Source: a virus (Duplodnaviria; Heunggongvirae; Uroviricota; Caudoviricetes). Taken from it: DNA of 46,799 bases. The notes under the pieces are model-generated. The model was not told the origin of the DNA. It saw only the letters and a list, made by a program, of their open reading frames with translations, and did not search any database. The DNA lies in IMG/VR virus record IMGVR_UViG_2597490154_000003. One strand, 5' to 3'. Of this stretch, positions 31,506 through 46,799 are shown piece after piece. How positions within the stretch are numbered: the first letter of the stretch is position 1; each line of letters starts with the position of its first letter. A program made the translations under genes and the position numbers.

Positions 31506-31515
31506 AATGACTCCT

Positions 31516-31592
31516 GTGGATTGATCCAGTAATGACCTCAGAATTCCATCTGGATTTGTTCAGAACGCTCGGTTGCCGCCGGGCGTTTTTTA
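31516..31592 (+). ncRNA. oop: OOP antisense RNA (antisense to cII 3-prime end)
   Basis: sequence gattgatccagtaatgacctcagaa..tccatctggatttgttcagaacgctcggttgccgccgggcgttttttatt matches remembered lambda oop RNA and terminator; candidate -10 TCATAAT just upstream. Confidence 0.7.
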
Positions 31593-31834
31593 TTGGTGAG
31601 TCCATCAAGCGCATACTTAAAAGCCCTGCTAATCGGACTGATGTCTGATGCCATTCCGAAAGCACACAAGACCGAAGCAATAAATCTCCAGTCCGTTCTG
31701 CTTATCTTCGATTCATGACAGCCAATCATCTTTGCCAGACCGCGCTGGGTAATAGCTGACAGATTGATAAGTAAATCTGTTTCTGCGCGATCAACGTCAC
31801 GCTGTGATAGTTTGCTGTAACTTGTTCTTTCCAT
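31538..31834 (-). CDS. cII: transcriptional activator CII (mosaic: non-lambda N-terminal part, lambda-like C-terminus)
   Basis: 98 aa; C-terminal TNKKRPAATERSEQIQMEF identical to lambda CII; N-terminal two thirds differ; position downstream of cro. Confidence 0.8.
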   Translation of the reverse strand: MERTSYSKLSQRDVDRAETDLLINLSAITQRGLAKMIGCHESKISRTDWRFIASVLCAFGMASDISPISRAFKYALDGLTNKKRPAATERSEQIQMEF

Positions 31835-31919
31835 TTCTTAAGATTTCCAATAGTGAATAGTTAGTTGAAAGGTATGCGTGGAAACGCATATGGCCTTAGT
31901 TGGTCAGATATCTTGGAAC

Positions 31920-31966
31920 TCGCTTTTCAGCGACGTAGGACGAATGTCCGTTGTTACAAAGAGCGG
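31920..31966 (-). promoter_or_regulatory. nutR candidate (boxA plus boxB)
   Basis: minus strand just downstream of cro: boxA-like CGCTCTTTGTAACAA then, 17 nt later, boxB-like hairpin TCGC-TGAAAA-GCGA (resembles P22 boxB GCGCTGACAAAGCGC). Confidence 0.5.
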
Positions 31967-31975
31967 ATCCGCTTA

Positions 31976-32191
31976 TTAAGCGGCTTTGTGTTCCGGCGGG
32001 AACACGTCATCAAGACTGACTTTTGCGCCTAACTTGTTTAGGCACGCAACAAGAGCACGGCATGTTTTAAGGTCTGGGAAGCGACGACCAGATTCCCAAT
32101 GTCCGATAGCTCCCTGTGTGCATCCAACTGCCTTAGCAAGTGTTGTTTGAGAGATATTCAGTGACTCTCGATATTTTCGTAGGTTGCTCAT
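31976..32191 (-). CDS. cro: Cro repressor (non-lambda immunity type)
   Basis: internal ATG of track ORF gives 71 aa MSNLRKYRESLNISQTTLAKAVGCTQGAIGHWESGRRFP with HTH; GGAGGG RBS; divergent from cI. Confidence 0.8.
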   Translation of the reverse strand: MSNLRKYRESLNISQTTLAKAVGCTQGAIGHWESGRRFPDLKTCRALVACLNKLGAKVSLDDVFPPEHKAA

Positions 32192-32302
32192 ATGCCCTCC
32201 ATAGTAAACACGAATAAAAAAATACAATATGTACTTTGCGAATACAAGTAAAAATACACATTGTGCATGGATGGTTCCAGTACAGAGCGTAATAATAAGG
32301 AC
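32192..32302. promoter_or_regulatory. OR operator region with divergent PR (cro) and PRM (cI) promoters
   Basis: 111-bp AT-rich cro-cI intergenic; repeated ATACAA/TTGTAT half-site-like motifs; candidate PR on minus strand -35 TTGTAT, 17-bp spacer, -10 TATTTT. Confidence 0.55.
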
Positions 32303-32962
32303 ATGAAAATGAAATGGTATGAACTGGCTAGATCCAGAATGAAAGAGCTCGGCATAACTCAAGAGAAGTTAGCCGAAGAGCTAGGTATGACGCAGGGTGG
32401 GATTGGACACTGGTTGCGCGGATCTCGTCATCCATCTCTTAGTGATATTGGTGTGGTGTTTAAATACCTTGGTATTGATAACATATCATTCAACCACGAC
32501 GGGACATTTTCACCTGTTGGCGAATACTCATCGGCCCCAGTTAAAAAACAATATGAGTACCCTGTTTTTTCTCATGTTCAGGCTGGGATGTTCTCTCCAG
32601 AACTCAGAACCTTTACCAAAGGCGATGCGGAGAGATTGGTAAGCACAACCAAAAAAGCCAGTGACTCTGCATTCTGGCTTGAGGTTGAAGGTAACTCAAT
32701 GACCGCACCAACAGGTTCCAAACCCAGCTTTCCTGACGGGATGTTAATTCTGGTTGACCCTGAGCAAGCTGTTGAGCCCGGCGATTTCTGCATAGCCAGA
32801 CTTGGTGGTGATGAATTTACCTTCAAGAAACTGATCAGGGATAGCGGTCAGGTGTTTCTACAGCCACTAAACCCACAATACCCAATGATCCCATGCAATG
32901 AGAGTTGTTCCGTTGTGGGGAAAGTTATCGCCAGCCAATGGCCTGAAGAGACGTTTGGGTGA
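32303..32962 (+). CDS. cI: CI repressor, chimeric (novel N-terminal DNA-binding domain, lambda-like C-terminal domain)
   Basis: ATG at 32303 with TAAGGA RBS; C-terminal about 130 aa ([21 protein letters not shown] ... [16 protein letters not shown]) near-identical to lambda cI; N-terminal HTH region differs and shares TQGxIGHW motif with Cro. Confidence 0.9.
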
Positions 32963-33001
32963 TGAAACCACTTTTATCTACAATTTACAGGGCGGTAAAC
33001 A

Positions 33002-33559
33002 TTGGCAAAAATAGATGATTATCAGCCAAGCCAAGTAGAAGTTGATAAAGTACTTTATTGTAAAAAAATAGTTAACTTTTCTGGCGTTAAATGGAAACAG
33101 AAACCAAGTCGCTCTGATATGTGGCTACAAGCCCATATCATCCCCTTGGATGAGGATTGTATACCTATACAAGGGCTAAAGTTTGAACTGAAATGGAAAC
33201 CAGATCAGGATTCAGAACCTGATGACCCGATTTCTTACCCTAAAATAAATATTATTGCTTTCTATCATAACAAGAGGGTTTTCGCGGTAGATACCTATCA
33301 CTTTGACAAACACACGAATAGTTACAAGGTCGATCATCCGAAGTACCAAGATATCATTTACGGTGCTCACTACCATGTATACTATGAAGAAGCTGGATAC
33401 TATAGTGATAGAATAGCGTTTCCAATCGAAGATGACATAAACCCAGATGACCTGGTAGGGTATTGGAATTACTTCTGTAAACATCTGAACATAACTTACT
33501 CTGGGAGAATACCTTTACCGCTTGAAGATGAGTCGGGGCAAATGGGGTTTGGAATATGA
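33002..33559 (+). CDS. hypothetical protein, rex-locus gene A (unknown function)
   Basis: 185-aa ORF directly downstream of cI, same strand; track start at 33002 is TTG, first in-frame ATG at 33119; AT-rich by eye; stop overlaps start of next gene (ATGA); acidic, Tyr/His-rich. Confidence 0.55.
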   Translation: MAKIDDYQPSQVEVDKVLYCKKIVNFSGVKWKQKPSRSDMWLQAHIIPLDEDCIPIQGLKFELKWKPDQDSEPDDPISYPKINIIAFYHNKRVFAVDTYHFDKHTNSYKVDHPKYQDIIYGAHYHVYYEEAGYYSDRIAFPIEDDINPDDLVGYWNYFCKHLNITYSGRIPLPLEDESGQMGFGI

Positions 33560-34308
33560 TGTGCTCAACAGTGATCTCACAACTAGGTTTCGAATGCCAT
33601 CCAATAGGCAAGACCTTGAGAATTATCAGTCCATTCACTTACTGTGATGATGGAGAGCATGTCGGTGCCTTTATCCGTGAAGTCAATGGTAGGTATTTAG
33701 TTAGTGACAGATGCGATGCCTTAATGAATATGGAGGCAAGAGGGATCTCGCTTACCAAAAAACGACTTGATGAGATACGACAATTACTGCTTAAAGAAGG
33801 CGCAGAACTCAATGCTCGAGGAGAAATCATTGCTTGGGCAACAGAAAAGGATGTCGGTGCGATTACATCGAACATAATTAGAGCTGGTATACTCGCATCA
33901 ACTTTGTCGTTAGACTGGTATCAGCCAGTTCAAGCTGAAAAGTTTGAAAGTATGGTTATTGATTATCTATATCACACAGAGCTTAGAGACGCACTTTCTC
34001 TTCGTGAAAACGTATATGGCTTGAGTGGACATCAAATTACCGTCCCTGTAACAATAAAAACCGACATACCTAAATACGTTTTTACATCAAGCGTGAAACA
34101 CGGAGGAAGCTGGAATAGTGCTTACTCATTGCTTGGGAAACTAATTGATCTTAAAGCTTCAAGTGAGGAGTATAACAACAGATTTGTTGTTATAGACAGC
34201 GAAGCAATTGGTGATCAAATGCAACAACTCTCCTTACTCTTCCATGAATCAAGCCAAGTTCTACCATTCTCCAAAAGAGAGACTTGGGTTAAGAGACTTG
34301 CAGCATAA
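33556..34308 (+). CDS. hypothetical protein, rex-locus gene B (unknown function)
   Basis: 250-aa ORF, ATG at 33556 overlapping gene A stop; AT-rich; no TM segments or nucleotide-binding motifs seen by eye; followed by intrinsic terminator. Confidence 0.6.
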   Translation: MMCSTVISQLGFECHPIGKTLRIISPFTYCDDGEHVGAFIREVNGRYLVSDRCDALMNMEARGISLTKKRLDEIRQLLLKEGAELNARGEIIAWATEKDVGAITSNIIRAGILASTLSLDWYQPVQAEKFESMVIDYLYHTELRDALSLRENVYGLSGHQITVPVTIKTDIPKYVFTSSVKHGGSWNSAYSLLGKLIDLKASSEEYNNRFVVIDSEAIGDQMQQLSLLFHESSQVLPFSKRETWVKRLAA

Positions 34309-34313
34309 TACAA

Positions 34314-34340
34314 CCCGGCCTCAGCGCCGGGTTTTCTTTG
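34314..34340 (+). terminator. rho-independent terminator ending the cI/rex-locus operon
   Basis: hairpin cccggc-ctcagc-gccggg followed by TTTTCTTTG directly after gene B stop. Confidence 0.55.
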
Positions 34341-34517
34341 CCTCACGTTCGCCCACCTAAAAACACATAACCAATTATATTTATTGAAAAATAAATAGAT
34401 GCAACCCACTAAACCACGCAATTCTGATCTCTCCTTACATCGCCGAGGCAATACATCCACGCTAAAAAACAACACTATTAAATACAAAGCGTTATAAAAA
34501 ACCACGCCAACTTACAA

Positions 34518-34562
34518 CAAATTGTATTGATCTTGTAAAGTACATATCGTACTATTTAACCG
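34518..34562 (+). promoter_or_regulatory. PL promoter with OL operator candidate
   Basis: -35 TTGATC (34527-34532), 17-bp spacer, -10 TACTAT (34550-34555); spacer contains AAAGTACATATCGTA, an inverted near-copy of the OR motif AAAGTACATATTGTA. Confidence 0.45.
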
Positions 34563-34601
34563 TCAGCAGGACGCTGGAAGCCAAATGGAACAGACTGGCA
34601 G

Positions 34602-34646
34602 GCTCTTTAAACAACGTCGACTCTCGACTACGTGGCTGAAAAGCCA
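34602..34646 (+). promoter_or_regulatory. nutL candidate (boxA plus boxB)
   Basis: boxA-like GCTCTTTAAACAA (34602-34614) then, 18 nt later, hairpin TGGC-TGAAAA-GCCA (34633-34646); same loop and spacing as the nutR candidate. Confidence 0.5.
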
Positions 34647-34744
34647 GATCACCCAACCACATAAGCTGTGGGATGCAATGCCGAAGCAACCGTCTCAGGA
34701 GGAGCTTCGAGATTGCATCGCCAAAGTTTATTCGGGAGGAATCC

Positions 34745-35017
34745 ATGTCCAGAAAAACAGAATTTAAAGGCACCGCAGCTTCTCGCCGTAGAGCTCGTCG
34801 CGCAAATCTGCAAAGTCAGGAGGCGATCAGCTCCGACAAGCTACACAGGCCAACCCCTTCACGAGTGGTCTTGCAATGCAAGCTCAAACCAGCAATGAGA
34901 GCAGAAGTGATAACTCTGACAACGTTGACCAGAAAATATGAAGGTTCAACTTGTCTTCCGAACGTAGCTCTTTACGCGGCAGGCTACCGGAAATCAAAAC
35001 AACTGACGGCGAGATGA
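34745..35017 (+). CDS. N: antiterminator N (P22 gp24-like)
   Basis: ATG at 34745 with GGAGGA RBS; Arg-rich motif GTAASRRRARRANLQ near N-terminus; C-terminus NVALYAAGYRKSKQLTAR resembles remembered P22 gp24 end. Confidence 0.7.
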   Translation: MSRKTEFKGTAASRRRARRANLQSQEAISSDKLHRPTPSRVVLQCKLKPAMRAEVITLTTLTRKYEGSTCLPNVALYAAGYRKSKQLTAR

Positions 35018-35033
35018 TAAATTCATTTGCTAA

Positions 35034-35615
35034 TTACTTGTTTTTGCCATGCTTATCCTGAGCGATAAGTTCATCCATAAGGCTGTCTGCCTTCCCGGCA
35101 AACCTAATGTAGCACTCATGTCTATAGCTTTCAGGGATAACGAAACGGTCGGTATCAGGATATCCAACAGCAGGAGGCCTTCGAACGAGGAGTCCTTTTT
35201 TGAGCAATGAAATTGATTCATGAGCGCCCTTTTCCGTTTGTAGCTGGTTATTAGCGGCTACAGCGAATGCCAAATACGCTCTTTCTCCAAGAGTTAACGA
35301 ATCAAACAAATCTTGCACATATTTTTCTTCTTTAGATTTGCGCTTCTGAGCAGCGAATACCTCAATTCTTTCAGTCACAGCGTGATAAGCGGAATTAACA
35401 ACGCCGTTAAGCACATAGCTAACGCAAAACAACAGGATGTAATACATCCAGTAATGAGGAAGGATTTCTGGACTATGCAGGTTTATCCATTCTTTTACGC
35501 TTACCGGCATAACAATAATCAATATGATCAGGATGATTAGCATATGAATCAACTGTTTAAGTGTCATTCCTTGCAGGAAAAAATGCATTAGTTCCTGCCA
35601 CCATGAGTTGTTCAT
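35034..35615 (-). CDS. sieB: superinfection exclusion protein SieB-like
   Basis: track ORF runs into IS911; ATG at 35615 gives 193 aa MNNSWWQELMHFFLQGMTLKQLIHMLIILIILIIVMPVSVKEWINL... with N-terminal TM segment, matching remembered lambda SieB. Confidence 0.7.
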   Translation of the reverse strand: MNNSWWQELMHFFLQGMTLKQLIHMLIILIILIIVMPVSVKEWINLHSPEILPHYWMYYILLFCVSYVLNGVVNSAYHAVTERIEVFAAQKRKSKEEKYVQDLFDSLTLGERAYLAFAVAANNQLQTEKGAHESISLLKKGLLVRRPPAVGYPDTDRFVIPESYRHECYIRFAGKADSLMDELIAQDKHGKNK

Positions 35616-35721
35616 CGGCGTTTCTCTTTTGCTCTCTGTAGGGGTGAATTGAAGTGGTTTACTGAATTTGGCCACCTGAACAGAGGTGATATGCTCACCT
35701 CAGAACAACACAGGTGCCATA

Positions 35722-36872
<1,151 letters not shown>

Positions 36873-37014
36873 CTCGGTGGCCAGTTTTTGTTGACCACTT
36901 CAAATAGAGTTTATCCGATTTCTCGTTGTAGGGGTACACGAGAACCACCGAGCCTGATGTGGTTAAAAGACAGGCACAATCTTTACTACCGCAATCCACT
37001 ATTTAAGGTGATAT

Positions 37015-37101
37015 ATGGAAGAAGAATTTGAAGAGTTCGAAGAGCATCCTCAAGATGTGATGGAACAATACCAGGACTATCCGTATGACTACGACTATTG
37101 A
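37015..37101 (+). CDS. small acidic ORF (lambda orf28-like)
   Basis: my own translation: MEEEFEEFEEHPQDVMEQYQDYPYDYDY, 28 aa, RBS AAGGTG; overlaps ral start; below track size cutoff. Confidence 0.4.
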   Translation: MEEEFEEFEEHPQDVMEQYQDYPYDYDY

Positions 37102-37285
37102 TACAAATCAATGGTGTGGACAATTCAAACGATGCAATGGATGCAAGCTGCAATCGGAATGCATGGTTAAGCCTGAAGAAATGTTTCCTGTAATGGAAGA
37201 TGGGAAATATGTCGATAAATGGGCAATACGAACGACGGCAATGATTGCCAGAGAACTTGGTAAACAGAACAACAAAGCTGCCTGA
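37085..37285 (+). CDS. ral: restriction alleviation protein Ral
   Basis: 66 aa MTTTIDTNQWCGQFKRCNGCKLQSECMVKPEEMFPVMEDGKYVDKWAIRTTAMIARELGKQNNKAA matches lambda Ral. Confidence 0.9.
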   Translation: MTTTIDTNQWCGQFKRCNGCKLQSECMVKPEEMFPVMEDGKYVDKWAIRTTAMIARELGKQNNKAA

Positions 37286-37421
37286 TAGTGGCCTTTATTT
37301 TTGGCATAAATAACAGAATAAACACTGCACTGTGTATTCATTCCAACGAGTGAATACACGGAGCAATGTCGCTCGTAACTAAACAGGAGCCGACTTGTTC
37401 TGATTATTGGAAATCTTCTTT

Positions 37422-37448
37422 GCCCTCCAGTGTGAGGGCGATTTTTTA
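37422..37448 (+). terminator. intrinsic terminator within the PL operon (tL-type)
   Basis: hairpin gccctc-cagtgt-gagggc followed by GATTTTTTA between ral and ea10. Confidence 0.45.
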
Positions 37449-37467
37449 TCTATGAGGATATGAATAG

Positions 37468-37836
37468 ATGTCAAACATCAAAAAATACATCATTGATTAC
37501 GACTGGAAAGCATCAATAGAAATTGAAATTGACCATGACGTAATGACAGAGGAAAAACTTCACCAGATTAATAATTTCTGGTCAGACTCTGAATACCGAC
37601 TCAATAAACACGGCTCTGTATTAAATGCTGTATTAATCATGCTGGCGCAACATGCTCTGCTTATAGCAATTTCAAGCGACTTAAATGCATATGGTGTTGT
37701 GTGTGAGTTCGACTGGAATGATGGAAATGGTCAGGAAGGATGGCCTCCAATGGATGGTAGTGAAGGAATAAGAATTACCGATATCGATACATCAGGAATA
37801 TTTGATTCAGATGATATGACTATCAAGGCCGCCTGA
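37468..37836 (+). CDS. ea10: Ea10 (Ssb-like early protein)
   Basis: 122 aa MSNIKKYIIDYDWKASIEIEIDHDVMTEEKLHQINNFWSDSEYRLNKHG... matches lambda Ea10. Confidence 0.85.
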   Translation: MSNIKKYIIDYDWKASIEIEIDHDVMTEEKLHQINNFWSDSEYRLNKHGSVLNAVLIMLAQHALLIAISSDLNAYGVVCEFDWNDGNGQEGWPPMDGSEGIRITDIDTSGIFDSDDMTIKAA

Positions 37837-37908
37837 GCGCGGCGTTACCGCATACCAATTACGCTTCACTCGAGGCGTTTTTCGTTATGTATAAATAAGG
37901 AGCACACC

Positions 37909-38073
37909 ATGCAATATGCCATTGCAGGGTGGCCTGTTGCTGGCTGCCCTTCCGAATCTTTACTTGAACGAATCACCCGTAAATTACGTGACGGATGGAA
38001 ACGCCTTATCGACATACTTAATCAGCCAGGAGTCCCAAAAAATGGATCAAACAATTATGGCTATCCAGACTAA
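37909..38073 (+). CDS. cIII: CIII (FtsH inhibitor)
   Basis: my own translation from ATG 37909: [54 protein letters not shown], 54 aa as lambda CIII; below track size cutoff. Confidence 0.85.
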   Translation: MQYAIAGWPVAGCPSESLLERITRKLRDGWKRLIDILNQPGVPKNGSNNYGYPD

Positions 38074-38185
38074 ATTCACTATCGCCACTTTTATTGGCGA
38101 TGAAAAGATGTTTCGTGAGGCCGTCGACGCTTATAAAAAATGGATATTAATACTGAAACTGAGATCAAGCAAAAGCATTCACTAA
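38042..38185 (+). CDS. kil: Kil (host cell division inhibitor)
   Basis: ATG at 38042 in frame inside track ORF 37916-38185; 47 aa [47 protein letters not shown] as lambda Kil. Confidence 0.75.
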
Positions 38186-38260
38186 CCCCCTTTCCTGTTT
38201 TCCTAATCAGCCTGGCATTTCGCGGGCGATATTTTCACAGCCATTTTCAGGAGTTCAGCC

Positions 38261-38557
38261 ATGAACGCTTATTACATTCAGGATCGTCTTGAGGCTCAGA
38301 GCTGGGCGCGTCACTACCAGCAGATCGCCCGTGAAGAGAAAGAGGCAGAACTGGCAGACGACATGGAAAAAGGCCTGCCCCAGCACCTGTTTGAATCGCT
38401 ATGCATCGATCATTTACAACGCCACGGGGCCAGCAAAAAAGCCATTACCCGTGCGTTTGATGACGATGTTGAGTTTCAGGAGCGCATGGCAGAACACATC
38501 CGGTACATAGTTGAAACCATTGCTCACCATCAGGCTGATATTGATTCAGAGGTATAA
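38261..38557 (+). CDS. gam: Gam (RecBCD inhibitor), short GamS form
   Basis: 98 aa [60 protein letters not shown]... matches lambda Gam from its internal Met; the upstream [10 protein letters not shown] start at 38140 is in another frame here. Confidence 0.85.
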
Positions 38558-38562
38558 AACGG

Positions 38563-39348
38563 ATGAGTACAGCACTCGCAACGCTGGCAGGGAAGCTGGC
38601 TGAACGTGTCGGCATGGATTCTGTCGACCCACAGGAACTGATCACCACTCTTCGCCAGACGGCATTTAAAGGTGATGCCAGCGATGCGCAGTTCATCGCA
38701 TTGTTGATCGTCGCCAACCAGTACGGCCTTAATCCGTGGACGAAAGAAATTTACGCCTTCCCTGATAAGCAGAACGGCATTGTTCCGGTGGTGGGCGTTG
38801 ATGGCTGGTCCCGCATCATCAATGAAAACCAGCAGTTTGATGGTATGGACTTTGAGCAGGACAATGAATCATGTACATGCCGGATTTACCGCAAAGACCG
38901 CAATCATCCGATCTGCGTTACCGAGTGGATGGATGAATGCCGCCGCGAACCATTCAAAACCCGCGAAGGCAGAGAAATCACGGGGCCGTGGCAGTCGCAT
39001 CCCAAACGGATGTTACGGCATAAAGCCATGATTCAGTGTGCCCGTCTCGCCTTCGGATTTGCTGGTATCTATGACAAGGATGAAGCCGAGCGCATTGTCG
39101 AAAATACCGCATACACTGCAGAACGTCAGCCGGAACGCGACATCACTCCGGTTAACGATGAAACCATGCAGGAGATTAACACTCTGCTGATCGCCCTGGA
39201 TAAAACATGGGATGACGACTTATTGCCGCTCTGTTCCCAGATATTTCGCCGCGACATTCGCGCATCGTCAGAACTGACACAGGCCGAAGCAGTGAAAGCT
39301 CTTGGATTCCTGAAACAGAAAGCCACTGAGCAGAAGGTGGCAGCATGA
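38563..39348 (+). CDS. bet: Bet (Red-beta single-strand annealing protein)
   Basis: 261 aa [66 protein letters not shown]... matches lambda Bet. Confidence 0.95.
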
Positions 39349-40025
39349 CACCGGACATTATCCTGCAGCGTACCGGGATCGACGTGAGAGCTGTCGAACA
39401 GGGGGATGATGCATGGCACAAATTACGGCTCGGCGTCATCACCGCTTCAGAAGTTCACAACGTGATAGCAAAACCCCGCTCCGGAAAGAAATGGCCTGAC
39501 ATGAAAATGTCCTACTTCCACACCCTGCTTGCTGAGGTTTGCACCGGTGTGGCTCCGGAAGTTAACGCTAAGGCGCTGGCTTGGGGAAAACAGTACGAGA
39601 ACGACGCCAGAGCCCTGTTTGAGTTTACTTCCGGCGTGAATGTTACTGAATCCCCGATCATCTATCGCGACGAAAGTATGCGCACCGCCTGCTCTCCCGA
39701 TGGTTTATGCAGTGACGGCAACGGCCTTGAGCTGAAATGCCCGTTTACCTCCCGGGATTTCATGAAGTTCCGGCTCGGTGGTTTCGAGGCCATAAAATCG
39801 GCTTACATGGCCCAGGTGCAGTACAGCATGTGGGTGACGCGAAAAGATGCCTGGTACTTTGCCAACTATGACCCGCGTATGAAGCGTGAAGGACTGCATT
39901 ATGTCGTGGTTGAGCGGGATGAAAAGTACATGGCGAGTTTTGACGAGATGGTGCCGGAGTTCATCGAAAAAATGGACGAGGCACTGGCTGAAATTAGTTT
40001 TGTATTTGGGGAGCAATGGCGATGA
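39345..40025 (+). CDS. exo: Exo (Red-alpha 5-prime to 3-prime exonuclease)
   Basis: 226 aa [65 protein letters not shown]... matches lambda Exo. Confidence 0.95.
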
Positions 40026-40204
40026 CGCATCCTCACGATAATATCCGGGTAGGCGCGATCACTTTCGTCTACTCCGTTACAAAGCGAGGCTGGGTATTTC
40101 CCGGCCTTTCTGTTATCAGAAATCCACTGAAAGCACAGCGGCTGGCTGAGAAGATAAATAATAAACGGGAGGCGGTATGCACAAAGCATCTCCTGTTGAG
40201 TTAA
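40022..40204 (+). CDS. lambda orf60a-like protein
   Basis: track ORF 40016-40204; from [60 protein letters not shown] resembles remembered lambda orf60a. Confidence 0.55.
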
Positions 40205-40351
40205 GAACGAGTATTGAGATGGCACATAGCCTTGCTCAAATTGGAGTCAGGTTTGTGCCAATACCAGTAGAAACAGACGAAGAATTTCATACGTTAGCCA
40301 CATCCCTTTCACAAAAGCTGGAAATGATGGTGGCGAAAGCAGAAGCAGATG
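40177..40351 (+). pseudogene. lambda orf63-like gene truncated by IS911 insertion (last 7 codons displaced to 41602-41621)
   Basis: [58 protein letters not shown] then IS911 end; removing the IS and one ATG copy restores ...AEADERDQV-stop. Confidence 0.6.
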
Positions 40352-40381
40352 TGAAGTGGTCAACAAAAACTGGCCACCGAG

Positions 40382-41529
<1,148 letters not shown>

Positions 41530-41617
41530 TATGGCACCTGTGTTGTTCTGAGGTGAGCATATCACCTCTGTTCAGGTGGCCAAATTCAGTAAACCACTTC
41601 AATGAGAGAGACCAGGT

Positions 41618-41701
41618 ATGACAACCACTGAATGCATTTTTCTGGCAGCGGGCTTCATATTCTGTGTGCTTATGCTTGCCGACATGGGGCTTGTTCAGTG
41701 A
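41618..41701 (+). CDS. small hydrophobic ORF (27 aa)
   Basis: my own translation: MTTTECIFLAAGFIFCVLMLADMGLVQ; ATG overlaps the displaced orf63 stop; stop overlaps GTG start of next gene; below track cutoff. Confidence 0.25.
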   Translation: MTTTECIFLAAGFIFCVLMLADMGLVQ

Positions 41702-41913
41702 CACCTCAGCAAGAAAACGCCCTTCGCAGCATTGCCCGTCAGGCTAATTCTGAAATCAAAAAAGCCAGACAGCAGTTTCCGGATAAAAACGTCGATGACA
41801 TTTGCCGTAGCGTACTAAAGAAGCACCGCGAAACGGTAACGCTGATGGGATTCACACCGACTCATTTAAGCCTGGCGATCGGCATGTTAAACGGCGTCTT
41901 TAAGGAACGGTGA
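41698..41913 (+). CDS. hypothetical protein (lambda orf61-like position)
   Basis: GTG at 41698 in frame within track ORF 41632-41913; 71 aa VTPQQENALRSIARQANSEIKKARQQFPDKNVDDICRSVLKKHRETVTLMGF... Confidence 0.45.
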   Translation: MTPQQENALRSIARQANSEIKKARQQFPDKNVDDICRSVLKKHRETVTLMGFTPTHLSLAIGMLNGVFKER

Positions 41914-42011
41914 ACATGAAAAGCAAAATCATCAGGGAGCTACAGGCTCCTTTTTTATTATTCGCATTCACCCTCAAGCGTATTAACCAACAATTCAGGG
42001 ATTAATGAAAG

Positions 42012-42233
42012 ATGGCGGACATCATTGATTCAGCATCAGAAATTGAAGAATTACAGCGCAATACAGCAATAAAAATGCGTCGTCTGAACTACCAGACTAT
42101 ATCCGCCACTCATTGTTGTGAGTGTGGCGATCCCATAGATGAACGAAGACGCCTGGTCGTTCAGGGTTGTCGGACTTGTGCAAGTTGCCAGGAGGATCTG
42201 GAGCTTATCAGTAAACAGAGAGGTTCGAAGTGA
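42012..42233 (+). CDS. zinc-finger protein, TraR/DksA-like
   Basis: 73 aa with CCECG...C..C..C four-Cys arrangement near C-terminus. Confidence 0.55.
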   Translation: MADIIDSASEIEELQRNTAIKMRRLNYQTISATHCCECGDPIDERRRLVVQGCRTCASCQEDLELISKQRGSK

Positions 42234-42994
42234 GCGAAATTAACTATCAGGCACTGCGTGAAGCGGCAGAAAAAGCAACGTGTGGTGAGTGGTCGCTCGA
42301 ATATGGAGAGAGCCGATTTGATGGTGATTATGCGCTAATTCATCGTGAAGTTGCTGGATATATTCCCATTTGCAGAATTGAAGGAGCGCATCCAGAAAGC
42401 GGTTTCGATGAAGATTTCCAAATGGAACAGCAGGCCAATGCTGAATTCATCGCCGCAGCCAATCCGGCTACTGTGCTGGCACTGCTGGATGAACGGGAAA
42501 GAAACCAGCAATACATAAAACGCCGCGACCAGGAGAACGAGGATATTGCTCTTACTGTTGGGAAGCTGAGAGTTGAGCTTGAGGAGACAAAATCAAAACT
42601 CAACGAGCAGCGTGAGTATTACGAAGGTGTTATCTCGGATGGGGGTAAGCGTATTGCTGAACTGGAGAAAAGCGAAGAGCAACTCATTAACGAGCGTGAC
42701 CATGCTGAATCTGCTTTAGCAGATATGTACTTTGCAGCAACCGGGGATGAGCCGGAGTGGAGCAACTGGTTCGGCTTTTCAGATGCTGTCGATGCCGTGG
42801 TTGACAGAATTGCTGATTTAGAAGCTAAACAGCCATCACCAGTAGTACCGGAAGGACTGGTTAAAGCAGTGCGCTTCTATGAACAGGTTAAGCGTGAAAA
42901 TCCACCAGTCGAAACAGAGGCATGGAAAGACGCTATTGACTGGGTGCTCAAAGAGTCTTGTCAGGCTGTAAACATTGATACCAATGGAGATTGA
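42230..42994 (+). CDS. Ea22-like protein
   Basis: 254 aa; N-terminus MSEINYQALREAAEKA and central LLDERERNQQYIKRRDQENEDIALTVGKLRVELEE..KSKLNEQREYYEGVISDG resemble remembered lambda Ea22; coiled-coil. Confidence 0.6.
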   Translation: MSEINYQALREAAEKATCGEWSLEYGESRFDGDYALIHREVAGYIPICRIEGAHPESGFDEDFQMEQQANAEFIAAANPATVLALLDERERNQQYIKRRDQENEDIALTVGKLRVELEETKSKLNEQREYYEGVISDGGKRIAELEKSEEQLINERDHAESALADMYFAATGDEPEWSNWFGFSDAVDAVVDRIADLEAKQPSPVVPEGLVKAVRFYEQVKRENPPVETEAWKDAIDWVLKESCQAVNIDTNGD

Positions 42995-42995
42995 T

Positions 42996-43250
42996 ATGAG
43001 CACTTTTACCGACAAAGAACTGATTAAAGAAATCAAAGAGCGTATCAGCAGTTTGGATGTGCGAGACAATGTTGAGCGCCGGGCTTATGAAATTGCTCTG
43101 GCATCGCTGGAAGAGAATCCGGTGGCATGGCTGCATTCAGACAATGGCTTAGGTATTCCGGCAATAACGAGGAGTAAAAACATTGCTGACAGTTGGTTAT
43201 CAAAGGGTTGGTATGTTCAGCCGCTATATATGCCAAGCCAGTGCCAGTAG
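42996..43250 (+). CDS. hypothetical protein
   Basis: internal ATG of track ORF 42975-43250 with GGAG RBS; N-terminal motif ERRAYEIALASLEEN echoes N-terminus of the 44009-44749 gene. Confidence 0.4.
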   Translation: MSTFTDKELIKEIKERISSLDVRDNVERRAYEIALASLEENPVAWLHSDNGLGIPAITRSKNIADSWLSKGWYVQPLYMPSQCQ

Positions 43251-43267
43251 TACCTGAAGAAAAACCA

Positions 43268-43801
43268 ATGCCTAACCCTCTTAGCATGTACGCGGTCGAT
43301 GCTGTTGCCGCTATTGCAGAGGTGAGAGGCTGGAACGCCTGCCGCGCGGCTATGCTTCATGCCGGAAACTTTCGGGAAAACGCGAATTCGTCAACCAATA
43401 ATTTTCGGGAAATTTCGGAAACGTCAACCAACTCTCCGGTAATTCCTGGTGAGGTGTTGTCCGCAATCCTGAAATTTGCCAGAGTTCGTGCTGATTTCGA
43501 TGATTTTGACGGCGACAGGCGAGGTATCGGTGATTGTCTGGATGAGGCTGAGCAAGAGCTTATCGTTACCATTAACAAATATGCCAGTCAGTTGGCAGCA
43601 GAACCGATAGCGACTAATGACGTTCGAGAGCAGCAGACAGCCGTTCCGCCAGTTCCTGTAATACAGGCTGATGTCGCGCAAGCAATTGAAAATCTCAGGC
43701 AGAAGTTAGTGGAATGCAATCGCTATAACTACTGCGCAGATGCAGTTAAGGGCGTAGAGGATGCCTGCCACGCTGCCATGCTTCAGGGAAAAAGAGAGTG
43801 A
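43268..43801 (+). CDS. hypothetical protein
   Basis: track ORF 43193-43801, start uncertain; contains NSPVIPGE motif encoded by an 18-nt stretch identical to one in the 44009-44749 gene. Confidence 0.4.
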   Translation: MPNPLSMYAVDAVAAIAEVRGWNACRAAMLHAGNFRENANSSTNNFREISETSTNSPVIPGEVLSAILKFARVRADFDDFDGDRRGIGDCLDEAEQELIVTINKYASQLAAEPIATNDVREQQTAVPPVPVIQADVAQAIENLRQKLVECNRYNYCADAVKGVEDACHAAMLQGKRE

Positions 43802-43802
43802 T

Positions 43803-44012
43803 ATGGCTATTGCCGCAAGTTACACCATGCATCTCTATTGTGATTGTCGCCAGTGTACGGAAGGTGTATATCCAGTGCCAGACTTCGGTGAGTATATCGG
43901 TACGTCATGGTCTGGTTGTGCAAAAGAGGCCCGTAAAGACGGGTGGCGAATAAGCAAAGACAAAACACGTACTTTTGCGCCCGGGCATAAAGTTTTGAGG
44001 ATTAACACATGA
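43803..44012 (+). CDS. hypothetical Cys-rich small protein
   Basis: internal ATG of track ORF 43761-44012; 69 aa MAIAASYTMHLYCDCRQCTEG...; CDC..C cluster. Confidence 0.4.
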   Translation: MAIAASYTMHLYCDCRQCTEGVYPVPDFGEYIGTSWSGCAKEARKDGWRISKDKTRTFAPGHKVLRINT

Positions 44013-44749
44013 CCACTATTACCAAAGAACGTATTGAATTGTTCATTAAAAATCCGCTTGAAAACGGGCTTACTCGTGGCGAACAAATGGAACTAGCACG
44101 AATTGCACTGGCATCACTGGAACGCGAACAGATTCGCCACGAGCATGCCAAATGGTCTGACTCCACATTTGGCTGCGTTGGCCCCATTGGTCCACTGAAA
44201 CACCTCTCAAAAGAGGCACTGGAAGCCGCAGCCGAACCAGACGATCTTAGCGAGTGGGCTGATATGCAGTTTCTGTTGTGGGATGCACAGCGCCGTGCTG
44301 GCATCAGCGATGCTGAAATTACCGTTGCTATGGAAGATAAATTGAAGATCAACATGGAGCGCCAGTGGCCTGAGCCAAAAGATGGTGAGCCTCGCTTGCA
44401 CATTAAAGAACCCGGCAACTCTCCGGTAATTCCGGATGGTTTATCCACGGTATGCGCTGAGGCTTATCAGGTTGTAGGAGTTATGGCAGATGCGCTTGGT
44501 GTATTCGGTGATGCAGCAGTACAGAAAGTTCTGGATAACCTGTCACAGCAAAAACTTGTTCACAGAGATGTGCTGCCGTTCTCGCTTCCGGTAACTCCGG
44601 ATGGTTGGGTTATGGTTCCTAAACAGGTAACGCCGGAAATCAGCAACGCGATAAACGTTGTGGGTCAACGCTGTACATGCGGAAATTGCTCTCAGCGGTT
44701 GTGGGATTTATTACTCGACGCCACACAGCAAGGAGTTAACCGTGGCTAA
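44009..44749 (+). CDS. hypothetical protein (paralogous to 42996-43250 plus 43268-43801 module)
   Basis: 246 aa; RBS GAGGAT; N-terminal ELARIALASLEREQ and internal NSPVIPDG motifs shared with the two upstream genes. Confidence 0.5.
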   Translation: MTTITKERIELFIKNPLENGLTRGEQMELARIALASLEREQIRHEHAKWSDSTFGCVGPIGPLKHLSKEALEAAAEPDDLSEWADMQFLLWDAQRRAGISDAEITVAMEDKLKINMERQWPEPKDGEPRLHIKEPGNSPVIPDGLSTVCAEAYQVVGVMADALGVFGDAAVQKVLDNLSQQKLVHRDVLPFSLPVTPDGWVMVPKQVTPEISNAINVVGQRCTCGNCSQRLWDLLLDATQQGVNRG

Positions 44750-45026
44750 CCTGCAACTTGCCGTTAAAGGTGAATACTTCGATGCCATGATTCGCGGAGA
44801 GAAAACGGAAGAGTATCGCCTGTGTAATGACTACTGGAAAAAGCGCCTCGTTAACCGTAAGCATGACCGCCTGATTATCACAAAGGGATATCCGAAGCGC
44901 GACGATTCCAGCCGCAGAGTTGATGTTCCGTATGACGGATATGAAGTGAAGACAATCACACATCCGCACTTCGGTGATAAACCGGTAAAGGTATACGCGA
45001 TAAAGGTAAATATCGGCACTGAATAA
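44742..45026 (+). CDS. hypothetical protein
   Basis: GTG at 44742 with AAGGAG RBS, in frame within track ORF 44658-45026; overlaps previous stop by 8 nt. Confidence 0.45.
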   Translation: MANLQLAVKGEYFDAMIRGEKTEEYRLCNDYWKKRLVNRKHDRLIITKGYPKRDDSSRRVDVPYDGYEVKTITHPHFGDKPVKVYAIKVNIGTE

Positions 45027-45051
45027 CAATCCGCACAACACAAGGTCAAGA

Positions 45052-45291
45052 ATGTTCAGAGTGATTTACCCTAACACCTGGTACGTCGACCACCACGGCA
45101 CTCCCTGCAAAATCCTGCGTTCCACTCACAACAAAGTTCACTACATCCGAAAAGGCAGAACATGTATCGCCAGCATGTTCCGCTTTAATCATGACTTTGA
45201 ACCTGTGAATAAAGCTGACGCAGATCGGATAGCTGAAGAGATCGAAACAGCAGAACACATTAAGAAGTTACGTGCCATACGCAGGAAATAG
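45052..45291 (+). CDS. hypothetical protein
   Basis: 79-aa ORF upstream of xis, same strand as early-left operon. Confidence 0.4.
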   Translation: MFRVIYPNTWYVDHHGTPCKILRSTHNKVHYIRKGRTCIASMFRFNHDFEPVNKADADRIAEEIETAEHIKKLRAIRRK

Positions 45292-45430
45292 AAAAATTGA
45301 TAAATTCAATACTGCATTTCTCAGCATTAAATTTATCTCTATGACCAGTCAAGAGATGTACCTGCCATGAGCTTAATATCATGTCAGATATATCGGTCAC
45401 AAACTCCCTCAGCAGCTAAGAGGAGGACAA

Positions 45431-45667
45431 ATGTCTCGACTAATCACTTTACAGGACTGGGCTAAAGAAGAATTTGGGGACTTAGCACCAAGTGAGCGAG
45501 TTCTGAAAAAATACGCGCAAGGGAAAATGATGGCCCCACCCGCTATAAAAGTTGGTCGCTACTGGATGATTGACCGAAATTCCCGTTTTGTAGGAACGCT
45601 TGCAGAACCGCAACTCCCAATAAACGCAAACCCAAAACTCCAACGGATAATCGCTGATGGCTGCTAG
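45431..45667 (+). CDS. xis: excisionase-like protein
   Basis: 78 aa directly upstream of and overlapping int; strong RBS AAGAGGAGGA; basic protein; assignment mainly by position and size. Confidence 0.6.
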   Translation: MSRLITLQDWAKEEFGDLAPSERVLKKYAQGKMMAPPAIKVGRYWMIDRNSRFVGTLAEPQLPINANPKLQRIIADGC

Positions 45668-46799
45668 ACCCCGATCTCACAAAATCTCTATACCCAATTT
45701 ATATTGCAAATTAGATAAGCGAACCGGAAAGGTATATTGGCAATACAAACATCCACTATCCGGTCGTTTTCATAGCTTAGGAACTGATGAGAATGAAGCA
45801 AAACAAGTTGCTACTGAAGCAAATACCATTATTGCTGAACAACGTACCCGACAAATATTAAGCGTCAATGAGCGTCTAGAAAGAATGAAAGGCAGGCGCT
45901 CAGACATTACGGTGACAGAATGGCTTGATAAATATATTTCTATCCAGGAGGACAGGCTGCAACATAATGAACTAAGACCCAACTCCTATCGGCAAAAAGG
46001 CAAACCCATTCGTCTTTTCCGTGAGCATTGTGGAATGCAACACCTCAAGGATATTACCGCACTTGATATTGCCGAAATAATTGATGCTGTAAAGGCTGAA
46101 GGTCATAACAGGATGGCGCAAGTCGTGAGAATGGTGTTGATCGACGTCTTCAAAGAAGCACAACACGCAGGACATGTTCCGCCAGGATTTAACCCAGCGC
46201 AGGCAACAAAACAACCGCGAAATCGAGTAAACCGCCAAAGATTATCACTGCCCGAATGGCAGGCAATATTTGACAGCGTAAGCAGACGGCAGCCCTATTT
46301 AAAATGCGGGATGCTACTTGCTCTTGTCACTGGACAACGTTTAGGCGATATCTGCAATTTGAAATTCTCTGATATCTGGGACGACATGTTGCACATTACT
46401 CAGGAAAAAACCGGTTCAAAACTTGCTATTCCGCTTAACCTGAAATGCGATGCTCTGAATATTACCCTTCGTGAAGTTATATCTCAGTGCAGGGATGCTG
46501 TTGTTAGTAAATATCTGGTCCATTACCGTCACACTACCTCTCAAGCAAACAGAGGAGACCAGGTGTCTGCAAATACTCTTACAACGGCTTTTAAAAAGGC
46601 CAGGGAAAAATGTGGCATAAAATGGGAGCCAGGAACTGCGCCCACATTTCATGAGCAGCGATCTCTGTCAGAACGGTTATATCGGGAACAGGGTCTGGAT
46701 ACGCAAAAGTTGTTAGGTCATAAATCCAGAAAAATGACCGACCGATACAATGATGATCGTGGTAAAGACTGGATTATCGTAGATATCAAAACAGCATAG
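45657..46799 (+). CDS. int: tyrosine site-specific integrase
   Basis: 380 aa; conserved block LALVTGQRLGDI, HEQRSLSERLY and LGHKSRKMTDRYNDDRG (tyrosine recombinase R..H..R..Y region); stop at window end. Confidence 0.9.
   Translation: MAARPRSHKISIPNLYCKLDKRTGKVYWQYKHPLSGRFHSLGTDENEAKQVATEANTIIAEQRTRQILSVNERLERMKGRRSDITVTEWLDKYISIQEDRLQHNELRPNSYRQKGKPIRLFREHCGMQHLKDITALDIAEIIDAVKAEGHNRMAQVVRMVLIDVFKEAQHAGHVPPGFNPAQATKQPRNRVNRQRLSLPEWQAIFDSVSRRQPYLKCGMLLALVTGQRLGDICNLKFSDIWDDMLHITQEKTGSKLAIPLNLKCDALNITLREVISQCRDAVVSKYLVHYRHTTSQANRGDQVSANTLTTAFKKAREKCGIKWEPGTAPTFHEQRSLSERLYREQGLDTQKLLGHKSRKMTDRYNDDRGKDWIIVDIKTA

What the first reader, a model, noticed from the sequence alone, without database searches (positions are those of the whole stretch)
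33002..34340. Unannotatable two-gene operon occupying the rexA/rexB position between cI and PL
Two translationally coupled genes (185 aa and 250 aa, ATGA stop/start overlap at 33556-33559) sit directly downstream of cI on the same strand and end in an intrinsic terminator (34314-34340) before PL/nutL/N. In lambda this slot holds the rexAB exclusion genes expressed in the lysogen. These genes are visibly more AT-rich than the flanking lambda-like DNA (about one third GC in the stretches I counted by eye) and I recognise no family, TM segment or nucleotide-binding motif in either protein. Location, coupling and composition make this the best candidate for an uncharacterised lysogen-expressed phage-exclusion or abortive-infection module.
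Basis: partly seen in the sequence, partly recalled or inferred. Interest (0 to 1): 0.85.

Follow-up and report, generated by a model that had tools for sequence, protein, structure and literature searches.

The report
Untested two-gene cassette replacing lambda rexAB
A lambda-like prophage of E. coli carries, exactly where phage lambda keeps its rexAB exclusion genes, a different pair of coupled genes (a new-fold histidine-rich protein and a nuclease-fold protein) that two computational screens have already flagged as a probable anti-phage system, though I found no published test of it.

Summary
Gene A (33002-33559, TTG start, 185 aa) and gene B (33556-34308, 250 aa) overlap in ATGA. They follow cI with no terminator between and end at a hairpin terminator (34312-34340) upstream of PL/nutL/N. 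Lambda homology stops 1 nt after the cI stop and resumes inside the rexB stop codon, so a 1348-bp cassette replaces rexA-rexB exactly. GC is 39.6% against 50.3% for the window, not one third.

"Unannotatable" is wrong. B is a DUF1828 plus DUF1829-like protein: a YbjN/type-III-chaperone-like N domain and a restriction-endonuclease-fold C domain. A is a weak DUF6978 relative with a confident model, no solved-fold match and three invariant histidines. The pair is a divergent member of PADLOC candidate PDC-M24. DefensePredictor (Science 2026) lists exactly these two accessions as predicted novel defence genes, but they are not among its 94 tested units.

In 91 of 91 related loci A and B overlap, and in all but a few lineages A directly follows a prophage repressor. 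These belong to many unrelated families, from E. coli to Aeromonas; a Pseudomonas phage shows the same layout.

Best reading (confidence 0.55): a lysogen-expressed defence module with a nuclease-fold effector. The function is untested and the canonical nuclease motif is absent.

The parts
32267..32962 (+). cI-type repressor (HTH_3 plus Peptidase_S24). It is a chimera: the last 412 nt are 93% identical to lambda cI, while the DNA-binding part differs. It is the presumed source of transcription (PRM) for the operon.
   Evidence: Pfam S24 1.3e-28 and HTH_3 2e-10; RefSeq annotation in Nissle 1917; lambda alignment. Co-transcription is inferred from the 39-nt gap with no terminator.
32964..34311 (+). 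Exchanged cassette: 1348 bp with no detectable similarity to lambda, replacing the 1399-bp lambda interval that holds rexA and rexB.
   Evidence: blastn of window 31800-35100 against lambda: 32552-32963 matches lambda 37637-37226, and 34312-34433 matches lambda 35826-35708.
33002..33559 (+). Gene A, 185 aa, TTG start. Distant DUF6978 / PDC-M24A relative with a confident model and no fold match among solved structures. H104, H123 and H125 are invariant, and the disordered C-terminal tail (PLEDESGQMGFGI) is conserved.
   Evidence: RefSeq WP_001062368.1.
33556..34308 (+). Gene B, 250 aa, with its ATG inside the ATGA overlap. The N-terminal DUF1828 domain (about residues 1-122) has a YbjN/type-III-secretion-chaperone-like fold. 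The C-terminal DUF1829-like domain (about residues 127-250) has a restriction-endonuclease fold.
   Evidence: An HHpred row in Table S5 of PMC13092281 gives DUF1829 at 98.8%, clan PDDEXK. RefSeq WP_000968518.1.
34312..34340 (+). Intrinsic terminator (8-bp stem, 6 G-C pairs, T-rich tail). It lies within a 122-nt stretch that is 90% identical to the lambda sequence just downstream of rexB.
34505..34560 (+). Probable OL/PL region. It shares an operator-like word with the OR region (32227-32237).
   Evidence: 11-mer ATATGTACTTT / AAAGTACATAT shared between 32227 and 34537. The promoter assignment is inferred by analogy with lambda.
34745..35017 (+). N antiterminator gene, the first gene of the PL operon.
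   Evidence: Annotated as antitermination protein N in phage PhiR57_1; ORF.

Best explanation
The two genes form a prophage accessory ('moron') operon transcribed with the repressor in the lysogen. Most probably it acts as an anti-phage defence (superinfection-exclusion or abortive-infection) module against other phages. Shown: the cassette sits exactly in the rexAB slot with no terminator after cI. A and B always co-occur with overlapping reading frames. The pair stays behind prophage repressors of many unrelated families. B combines a chaperone-like domain with a restriction-endonuclease-fold domain. A is a conserved protein with an invariant three-histidine cluster and a conserved disordered tail. 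Inferred: A and B form a complex made in fixed proportion by translational coupling, with A initiated at a weak TTG/GTG codon. In the uninfected lysogen the complex is inert. A cue from an infecting phage is sensed by A or by B's DUF1828 domain. B's DUF1829 domain then cuts nucleic acid, phage or host, which stops the infection. A's conserved acidic tail may dock on B's chaperone-like domain, since such domains bind extended peptides. Neither the trigger nor the substrate is known.
Against: I found no experiment on this operon. It is absent from the 94 tested units of DefensePredictor, and 55% of tested predictions there gave no phenotype. The canonical PD...(D/E)xK signature is not recognisable in B. 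The position of the usual Asp holds a G-x-S-G-H loop, and the third core strand has no conserved Lys, so nuclease activity is not assured. The most conserved residue of the whole family (D51) lies in the N domain, whose role is unknown. A has no recognisable fold or enzyme family. Expression in the lysogen is inferred from architecture, not measured.
Confidence: 0.55

Rival explanations
1. Toxin-antitoxin-like addiction or stabilisation module. B is a toxic nuclease-fold protein and A is its upstream, coupled neutraliser. The main role would be to keep the prophage in the cell rather than to exclude other phages. This overlaps with the defence reading, because many such pairs also abort infections.
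For: Antitoxin-first gene order with overlapping frames is conserved in 91/91 loci. A is acidic (29 D+E against 20 K+R) and evolves about twice as fast as B. DefensePredictor interprets DS-6B, the DUF1829-bearing protein of the validated HipAD system, as the antitoxin-like partner of a HipA-like kinase toxin.
Against: Neither protein matches any toxin or antitoxin family. Strict placement behind the repressor is not typical of addiction modules, which sit anywhere on mobile elements. The operon also persists in defective prophages such as that of Nissle 1917, which neither supports nor excludes this reading.
Confidence: 0.15
2. Modulator of the prophage's own lysis-lysogeny decision or induction.
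For: The pair is invariably linked to the repressor gene and co-transcribed with it. B has a DNA-enzyme fold.
Against: The same A-B family works behind repressors of many unrelated families and operator sets. That argues against a repressor- or operator-specific partner. Many lambdoid phages lack the pair and carry other cassettes in the slot.
Confidence: 0.1
3. A lysogenic-conversion function unrelated to phages, such as host physiology, stress tolerance or virulence.
For: The operon is AT-rich, moron-like DNA expressed from a prophage. It is widespread in extraintestinal and commensal E. coli, in 239 of 5426 complete genomes, including Nissle 1917, NU14 and ATCC 25922.
Against: There is no signal peptide or membrane segment, no metabolic or virulence family match, and the domain make-up is typical of conflict systems.
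Confidence: 0.1

Closest known systems
Lambda RexA/RexB exclusion system
   Same: Identical genomic slot with exact cassette boundaries. Both are two genes, on the same strand as cI, with the same downstream terminator region, and are expected to be expressed in the lysogen.
   Different: No sequence similarity (BLASTP E of 1 or more). RexB is a small polytopic membrane protein (hydropathy maximum 2.39), whereas A and B are soluble (0.45 and 1.19). The gene sizes run in the opposite order (185/250 aa against 279/144 aa). B has a nuclease-type fold, so the mechanism should differ from the reported membrane depolarisation.
PADLOC candidate system PDC-M24 (two genes, A about 148 aa and B about 255 aa; computational candidate only)
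   Same: B matches the PDC-M24B models over their whole length (4.7e-10 and 1.5e-7). 57 of 74 members of the wider B family match them down to 1e-55. A matches a PDC-M24A model over its conserved histidine region (4.8e-4). The two-gene order is the same.
   Different: The enterobacterial pair is a divergent branch. A is longer (185 aa) and matches only over about 60 residues. I found no paper that mentions PDC-M24, so membership brings no functional knowledge.
DefensePredictor predictions and the validated system DS-6 / HipAD (DeWeirdt, Mahoney & Laub, Science 2026, PMC13092281)
   Same: The exact accessions WP_000968518.1 and WP_001062368.1 are listed as 'Predicted novel defense gene'. DS-6B carries a DUF1829 domain, which is the only validated defence context for that domain.
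   Different: The operon is not among the 94 tested units. DS-6 pairs DUF3037-DUF1829 with a HipA-like kinase, whereas this operon has no kinase, and DUF1829 is joined to DUF1828 and paired with a DUF6978-like protein.
BstA (prophage BTP1) and DS-34: defence genes downstream of the prophage repressor
   Same: Same architecture: the gene or genes lie immediately downstream of cI and presumably share its promoter, ending at a Rho-independent terminator.
   Different: BstA is a single protein with a DNA-based self-immunity element. PADLOC found no match of A or B to it or to any other named system.
PD-(D/E)xK nucleases of the NgoMIV/Cfr10I/PspGI/EcoRII group and Can2/Card1 effector nuclease domains
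   Different: There is no recognisable PD...(D/E)xK motif. The conserved residues are G155-x-S157-G158-H159, K195, D198, R209 and E/D214. There is no DNA-recognition or CARF domain; instead there is a YbjN/chaperone-like domain.

Membership tests
RexAB | Sequence homology to RexA and RexB | tested here: not met
   BLASTP of A and B against lambda RexA and RexB: best E-value 1.0, alignments of 7-41 residues. No Rex model matched in PADLOC.
RexAB | A small polytopic membrane component (RexB) | tested here: not met
   Highest 19-residue hydropathy mean is 0.45 for A and 1.19 for B, against 2.39 for RexB.
RexAB | Location between cI and the OL/PL region, on the same strand as cI | tested here: met
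   Lambda homology ends 1 nt past the cI stop and resumes inside the rexB stop codon.
PADLOC PDC-M24 (candidate) | B component matches the PDC-M24B profile | tested here: met
   E 4.7e-10 over residues 2-249 against profile positions 4-254 of 256. 57 of 74 wider-family members match, best 8.8e-55.
PADLOC PDC-M24 (candidate) | A component matches the PDC-M24A profile and lies directly upstream | tested here: inconclusive
   The match is weak and partial (E 4.8e-4, residues 104-163), and only 2 of 14 diverse A proteins match any PDC-M24A model. However, the upstream partners of distant B homologues are A homologues (hmmsearch 5.9e-18, 1.1e-7, 1.4e-7), and one carries a weak DUF6978 hit.
Pfam DUF1828 / DUF1829 proteins | DUF1828 domain above Pfam's gathering score | tested here: met
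   33.5 bits against a cut-off of 22, residues 26-110. 63 of 74 wider-family members match.
Pfam DUF1828 / DUF1829 proteins | DUF1829 domain in the C-terminal half | tested here: inconclusive
   hmmscan gives no DUF1829 hit for the window protein and hits for only 4 of 74 relatives. An HHpred row in Table S5 of PMC13092281 gives 98.8% probability for residues 155-241 of this exact accession. The fold agrees.
PD-(D/E)xK nuclease superfamily | Restriction-endonuclease-like alpha/beta core fold | tested here: met
PD-(D/E)xK nuclease superfamily | Catalytic Asp on the second core strand and (D/E)xK on the third | tested here: not met
   The corresponding positions hold G-x-S-G-H (155-159) and a non-conserved strand (173-178). 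The conserved polar residues lie elsewhere: K195 and D198 on a helix, and E/D214. A relocated active site, as in NgoMIV/Cfr10I-type enzymes, cannot be judged without the model coordinates.
Pfam DUF6978 | Match above Pfam's gathering score | tested here: not met
   22 bits against a cut-off of 29.6, covering only profile positions 81-133. This indicates a distant relationship, not membership by Pfam's rule.
Type II toxin-antitoxin systems | Toxicity of one component neutralised by direct binding of the other | not testable with these tools
   No complex prediction or experiment was available. Only gene order and overlap are suggestive.

The most novel reading that the evidence does not exclude
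A-B is a mechanistically new defence system. A, a protein with a fold absent from solved structures and a conserved three-histidine (probably metal-binding) site, would be the sensor or regulator. It would control a non-canonical nuclease-fold effector through its conserved C-terminal tail docking on B's type-III-chaperone-like DUF1828 domain. The whole family (PDC-M24) would be a defence system specialised for the repressor-downstream slot of temperate phages.
Probability: 0.25. Interest if true: 0.7.

Novelty: new variant of a known kind. Interest (0 to 1): 0.5.

Why it matters
The interval between cI and N is the classic home of lambda's rexAB, and it is a known hotspot where temperate phages swap lysogen-expressed genes. 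This cassette is common. It occurs in 239 of 5426 complete E. coli genomes, including the probiotic Nissle 1917, the reference strains ATCC 25922 and ATCC 11775, uropathogenic strains and an Stx1a phage. It therefore bears on phage therapy, on the phage resistance of probiotics and on the spread of Stx phages. If it is a defence system, it would be the first function for the DUF1828 and DUF6978-like families and for the PADLOC candidate PDC-M24. It would also add a soluble, nuclease-fold alternative to the membrane-based Rex mechanism in the same slot. The experiment is simple, because functional carrier phages (PhiR57_1, ev207) and a defined 2.1-kb cI-A-B fragment are available.

Tried and rejected
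- Rex homology was rejected: no BLASTP similarity and no membrane segment.
- I tested whether the HK542/HK244 cassette in the same slot is related to A-B. It is not: no Pfam or PADLOC family is shared.
- Sequence searches of solved structures, with single proteins and with profiles, gave nothing meaningful. The 4e-6 hit of A to a designed Kelch-type repeat protein has no stretch that passes on its own, so I disregarded it.
- Literature searches for DUF1828, DUF6978, DUF1829, PDC-M24 and the two RefSeq accessions found no characterisation. A search for HipAD/HepS led nowhere.
- Brenes & Laub 2025, the source of phages PhiR57_1 and PhiR63_2, is not held and could not be read. I cannot exclude that it tested this operon.
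- The search for related loci with the 74-sequence alignment failed because the alignment was too diverse. The closer alignment worked.
- dN/dS ratios could not be computed for most pairs because synonymous sites are saturated.
- I did not run the costly genome contigs or metagenome scans, because the context was already consistent in 91 loci.

Full report
**What is in the sequence**

On the + strand the window reads in the direction of lambda's leftward transcription. The order is as follows:
- the cI-type repressor, 32267-32962;
- a 39-nt gap with no terminator-like site;
- gene A, 33002-33559 (TTG start, 185 aa);
- gene B, 33556-34308 (250 aa);
- a hairpin terminator at 34312-34333 with a T-rich tail to 34340.

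Downstream come a PL/OL-like region, a boxA/boxB-like nutL, N (34745-35017) and sieB on the opposite strand. The junction reads GGA ATA TGA / ATG ATG TGC, so the stop of A and the start of B share ATGA at 33556-33559. The operon is 39.6% GC, against 46.3% for cI and 50.3% for the window. It is clearly AT-richer, but not 'one third GC'. Neither protein has a membrane segment or a Walker A motif.

**The slot is exactly the rexAB slot**

I aligned window 31800-35100 to lambda and found two blocks:
- 32552-32963 matches lambda 37637-37226 at 93.4%. This block ends 1 nt after the cI stop codon.
- 34312-34433 matches lambda 35826-35708 at 90.2%. This block begins inside the rexB stop codon.

The 1348 bp between them have no lambda counterpart. 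They replace the 1399 bp that carry rexA and rexB. The terminator region is therefore the lambda sequence downstream of rexB. Phage HK542 has lambda-like flanks as well, but a third, unrelated two-gene cassette with the same 4-nt overlap. The literature describes the cI-N interval as a hotspot of mosaic diversity and places the defence gene bstA there as well (PMC8585504).

**Where the element occurs**

- The 1.5-kb region is 100% identical in phages ev207, ev017, PhiR57_1 and PhiR63_2, and 99% identical in an Stx1a phage.
- It is present at 80% coverage or more in 239 of 5426 complete E. coli genomes. These include Nissle 1917, ATCC 11775 and NU14.
- Window 35000-46799 is 100% identical to a prophage of ATCC 25922.

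**Protein B**

B passes Pfam's DUF1828 threshold. It belongs to phrog_1960 and matches the PADLOC candidate PDC-M24B over its full length (4.7e-10). The AlphaFold2 model built on 25 homologues has a mean pLDDT of 85.5 and shows two domains.

- For the C domain: restriction-endonuclease-fold proteins (Can2 10.4, BstEII 10.1, NgoMIV 9.9, PspGI 9.8, Bax1, VC1899, Cfr10I, EcoRII-C and others).

This agrees with an HHpred row for this exact accession in Table S5 of DeWeirdt et al. It gives DUF1829 for residues 155-241 at 98.8% probability, in clan PDDEXK.

An exhaustive profile search of 1.84 billion representative proteins found only 236 clusters at E of 0.001 or better. Nearly all full-length members are about 250 aa, so the two-domain architecture is fixed.

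In a 74-sequence alignment reaching about 20% identity, the conserved residues are as follows:
- D51, which is invariant;
- D32, G33, C3, C14 and E90 in the N domain;
- F130, G155-x-S157-G158-H159, W186, K195, D198, R209 and E/D214 in the C domain.

The canonical Asp on the second core strand and the (D/E)xK on the third are not present. Nuclease activity is therefore plausible, perhaps with a relocated or histidine-based site, but it is not established.

**Protein A**

A belongs to phrog_2017. It has only sub-threshold matches to DUF6978 (22 bits against a cut-off of 29.6) and to PDC-M24A (4.8e-4), both over residues 104-164.

The genes upstream of distant B homologues are A homologues (hmmsearch 5.9e-18, 1.1e-7 and 1.4e-7). 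One of them carries a weak DUF6978 hit.

In an alignment spanning E. coli to a Pseudomonas D3-like phage:
- K22, W31, H104, H123, H125, F158 and P173 are invariant.
- K81, R92, N106, W155, N163 and Q180 are nearly invariant.

The last 15 residues are predicted to be disordered (pLDDT 43-68). Yet they carry a motif (E..S-G-Q-x-G) that is kept even in the Pseudomonas phage, where the gene is not annotated. I read this as a three-histidine site, probably metal-binding, plus a short linear docking motif. Both readings are inferences.

**Linkage and context**

- All 91 related loci that encode B also encode A directly upstream, with a 4-nt overlap (13 nt in one clade).
- A starts with TTG or GTG in nearly every lineage.
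- The ORF upstream of A on the same strand falls into 14 sequence clusters. Most are confirmed S24-HTH or short-HTH repressors.
- Extra small ORFs lie between repressor and A in some lineages: a DUF3024 gene in L047-L050 and L052, and a membrane-like ORF in Thorsellia.
- The same layout, divergent from cro/cII-type genes, is seen in Aeromonas, Thorsellia, Klebsiella (Rac-type immunity region) and Photorhabdus. It is also seen in a metagenomic P22-like contig whose B is only about 21% identical, and in Pseudomonas phage phPA-G, where an annotated 216-aa gene lies between cI and A.
- Synonymous sites are saturated while dN stays at 0.11-0.40 for B and 0.21-0.64 for A. Both genes are therefore under purifying selection, and A evolves about twice as fast.

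**What is already known**

PADLOC v2 lists the family as the candidate PDC-M24. Of the 74 wider-family B proteins, 57 match its models, down to 1e-55. I found no paper that mentions it.

DefensePredictor (Science 2026, PMC13092281) lists WP_000968518.1 (log-odds 5.6) and WP_001062368.1 (log-odds 4.9) as 'Predicted novel defense gene' in an E. coli genome from its collection. Relatives appear in its larger E. coli set. The accessions are absent from Table S6, which lists the 94 units tested, and from Tables S7 and S8.

In that study:
- 45% of tested units protected.
- DUF1829 was newly implicated through DS-6B (HipAD).
- A cI-plus-downstream-gene unit, DS-34, was validated.

Brenes & Laub 2025 isolated two carrier phages. 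I could not read that paper.

**Interpretation**

The best-supported reading is a lysogen-expressed anti-phage module in the rex slot with a nuclease-fold effector (confidence 0.55). The proposed mechanism is inference:
- A and B form a coupled complex that is held inactive in the lysogen.
- An infecting phage is sensed through A or through the DUF1828 domain.
- The DUF1829 domain then acts.

The rival readings are a toxin-antitoxin-like addiction module (0.15), a modulator of the phage's own switch (0.10) and a lysogenic-conversion function unrelated to phages (0.10).

The operon is not a Rex homologue. It is a divergent member of an uncharacterised candidate family.

**Verdict**

'Unannotatable' and 'unrecognised' are overstated, because the module has already been flagged computationally. 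It remains an attractive, easily testable and apparently untested candidate. Interest: 0.5.

Noticed in passing
window 31510-31880 (cII gene at 31538-31834, minus strand): The 'phage repressor (pr)' gene EcN_1294 of Bury et al. 2018 (PMC5987069) reduced plating of lambda and stx phages about 200-fold when cloned on pUC19. Its cloning and qPCR primers map to the cII homologue of this prophage, not to cI. The published effect may therefore reflect overexpression of cII, which promotes lysogeny, rather than repressor immunity.
   Followed up: partly
window 32267-32962: The repressor is a chimera. Its last 412 nt (the S24 and dimerisation part) are 93% identical to lambda cI, while the N-terminal DNA-binding part has no lambda similarity. 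A recombination junction therefore lies inside cI at about 32552.
   Followed up: partly
window 35686-36872 and beyond: An IS3-family element (ISEc52-like; orfA at 35686-36024, orfB at 36051-36872) is inserted just past sieB, between the immunity region and the recombination genes. The same insertion is present in ATCC 25922 (100% identity over 35000-46799). In Nissle 1917 the IS is followed directly by a truncated integrase and icd.
   Followed up: partly
L012 (phage HK542) 1614-2665: The same cI-to-PL slot in HK542/HK244 holds a different, uncharacterised pair (144 aa and 206 aa), also with a 4-nt overlap. Neither protein has a significant Pfam or PADLOC match. It is another untested candidate cassette.
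   Followed up: partly
L101 (Pseudomonas phage VB_PaD_phPA-G) 2920-3504: The A homologue is not annotated in the GenBank record, probably because of a non-ATG start. An extra 216-aa gene lies between the cI-like repressor and A.
   Followed up: partly
L047-L050 and L052 (IMG/VR loci), e.g. L052 383-724: In one lineage a DUF3024 gene (2.9e-27) is inserted between the repressor and gene A.
   Followed up: no
window 33002; loci L001-L092: Gene A begins with TTG or GTG in nearly all lineages (ATG only in Thorsellia). This conserved weak initiation codon sits ahead of a translationally coupled partner, which suggests that low and fixed expression matters.
   Followed up: partly
window 34585-34767: RefSeq annotates a 60-aa hypothetical protein here (WP_000438342.1 in Nissle 1917). 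It overlaps the nutL-like boxA/boxB sequence and the start of N, and is probably a spurious call.
   Followed up: no
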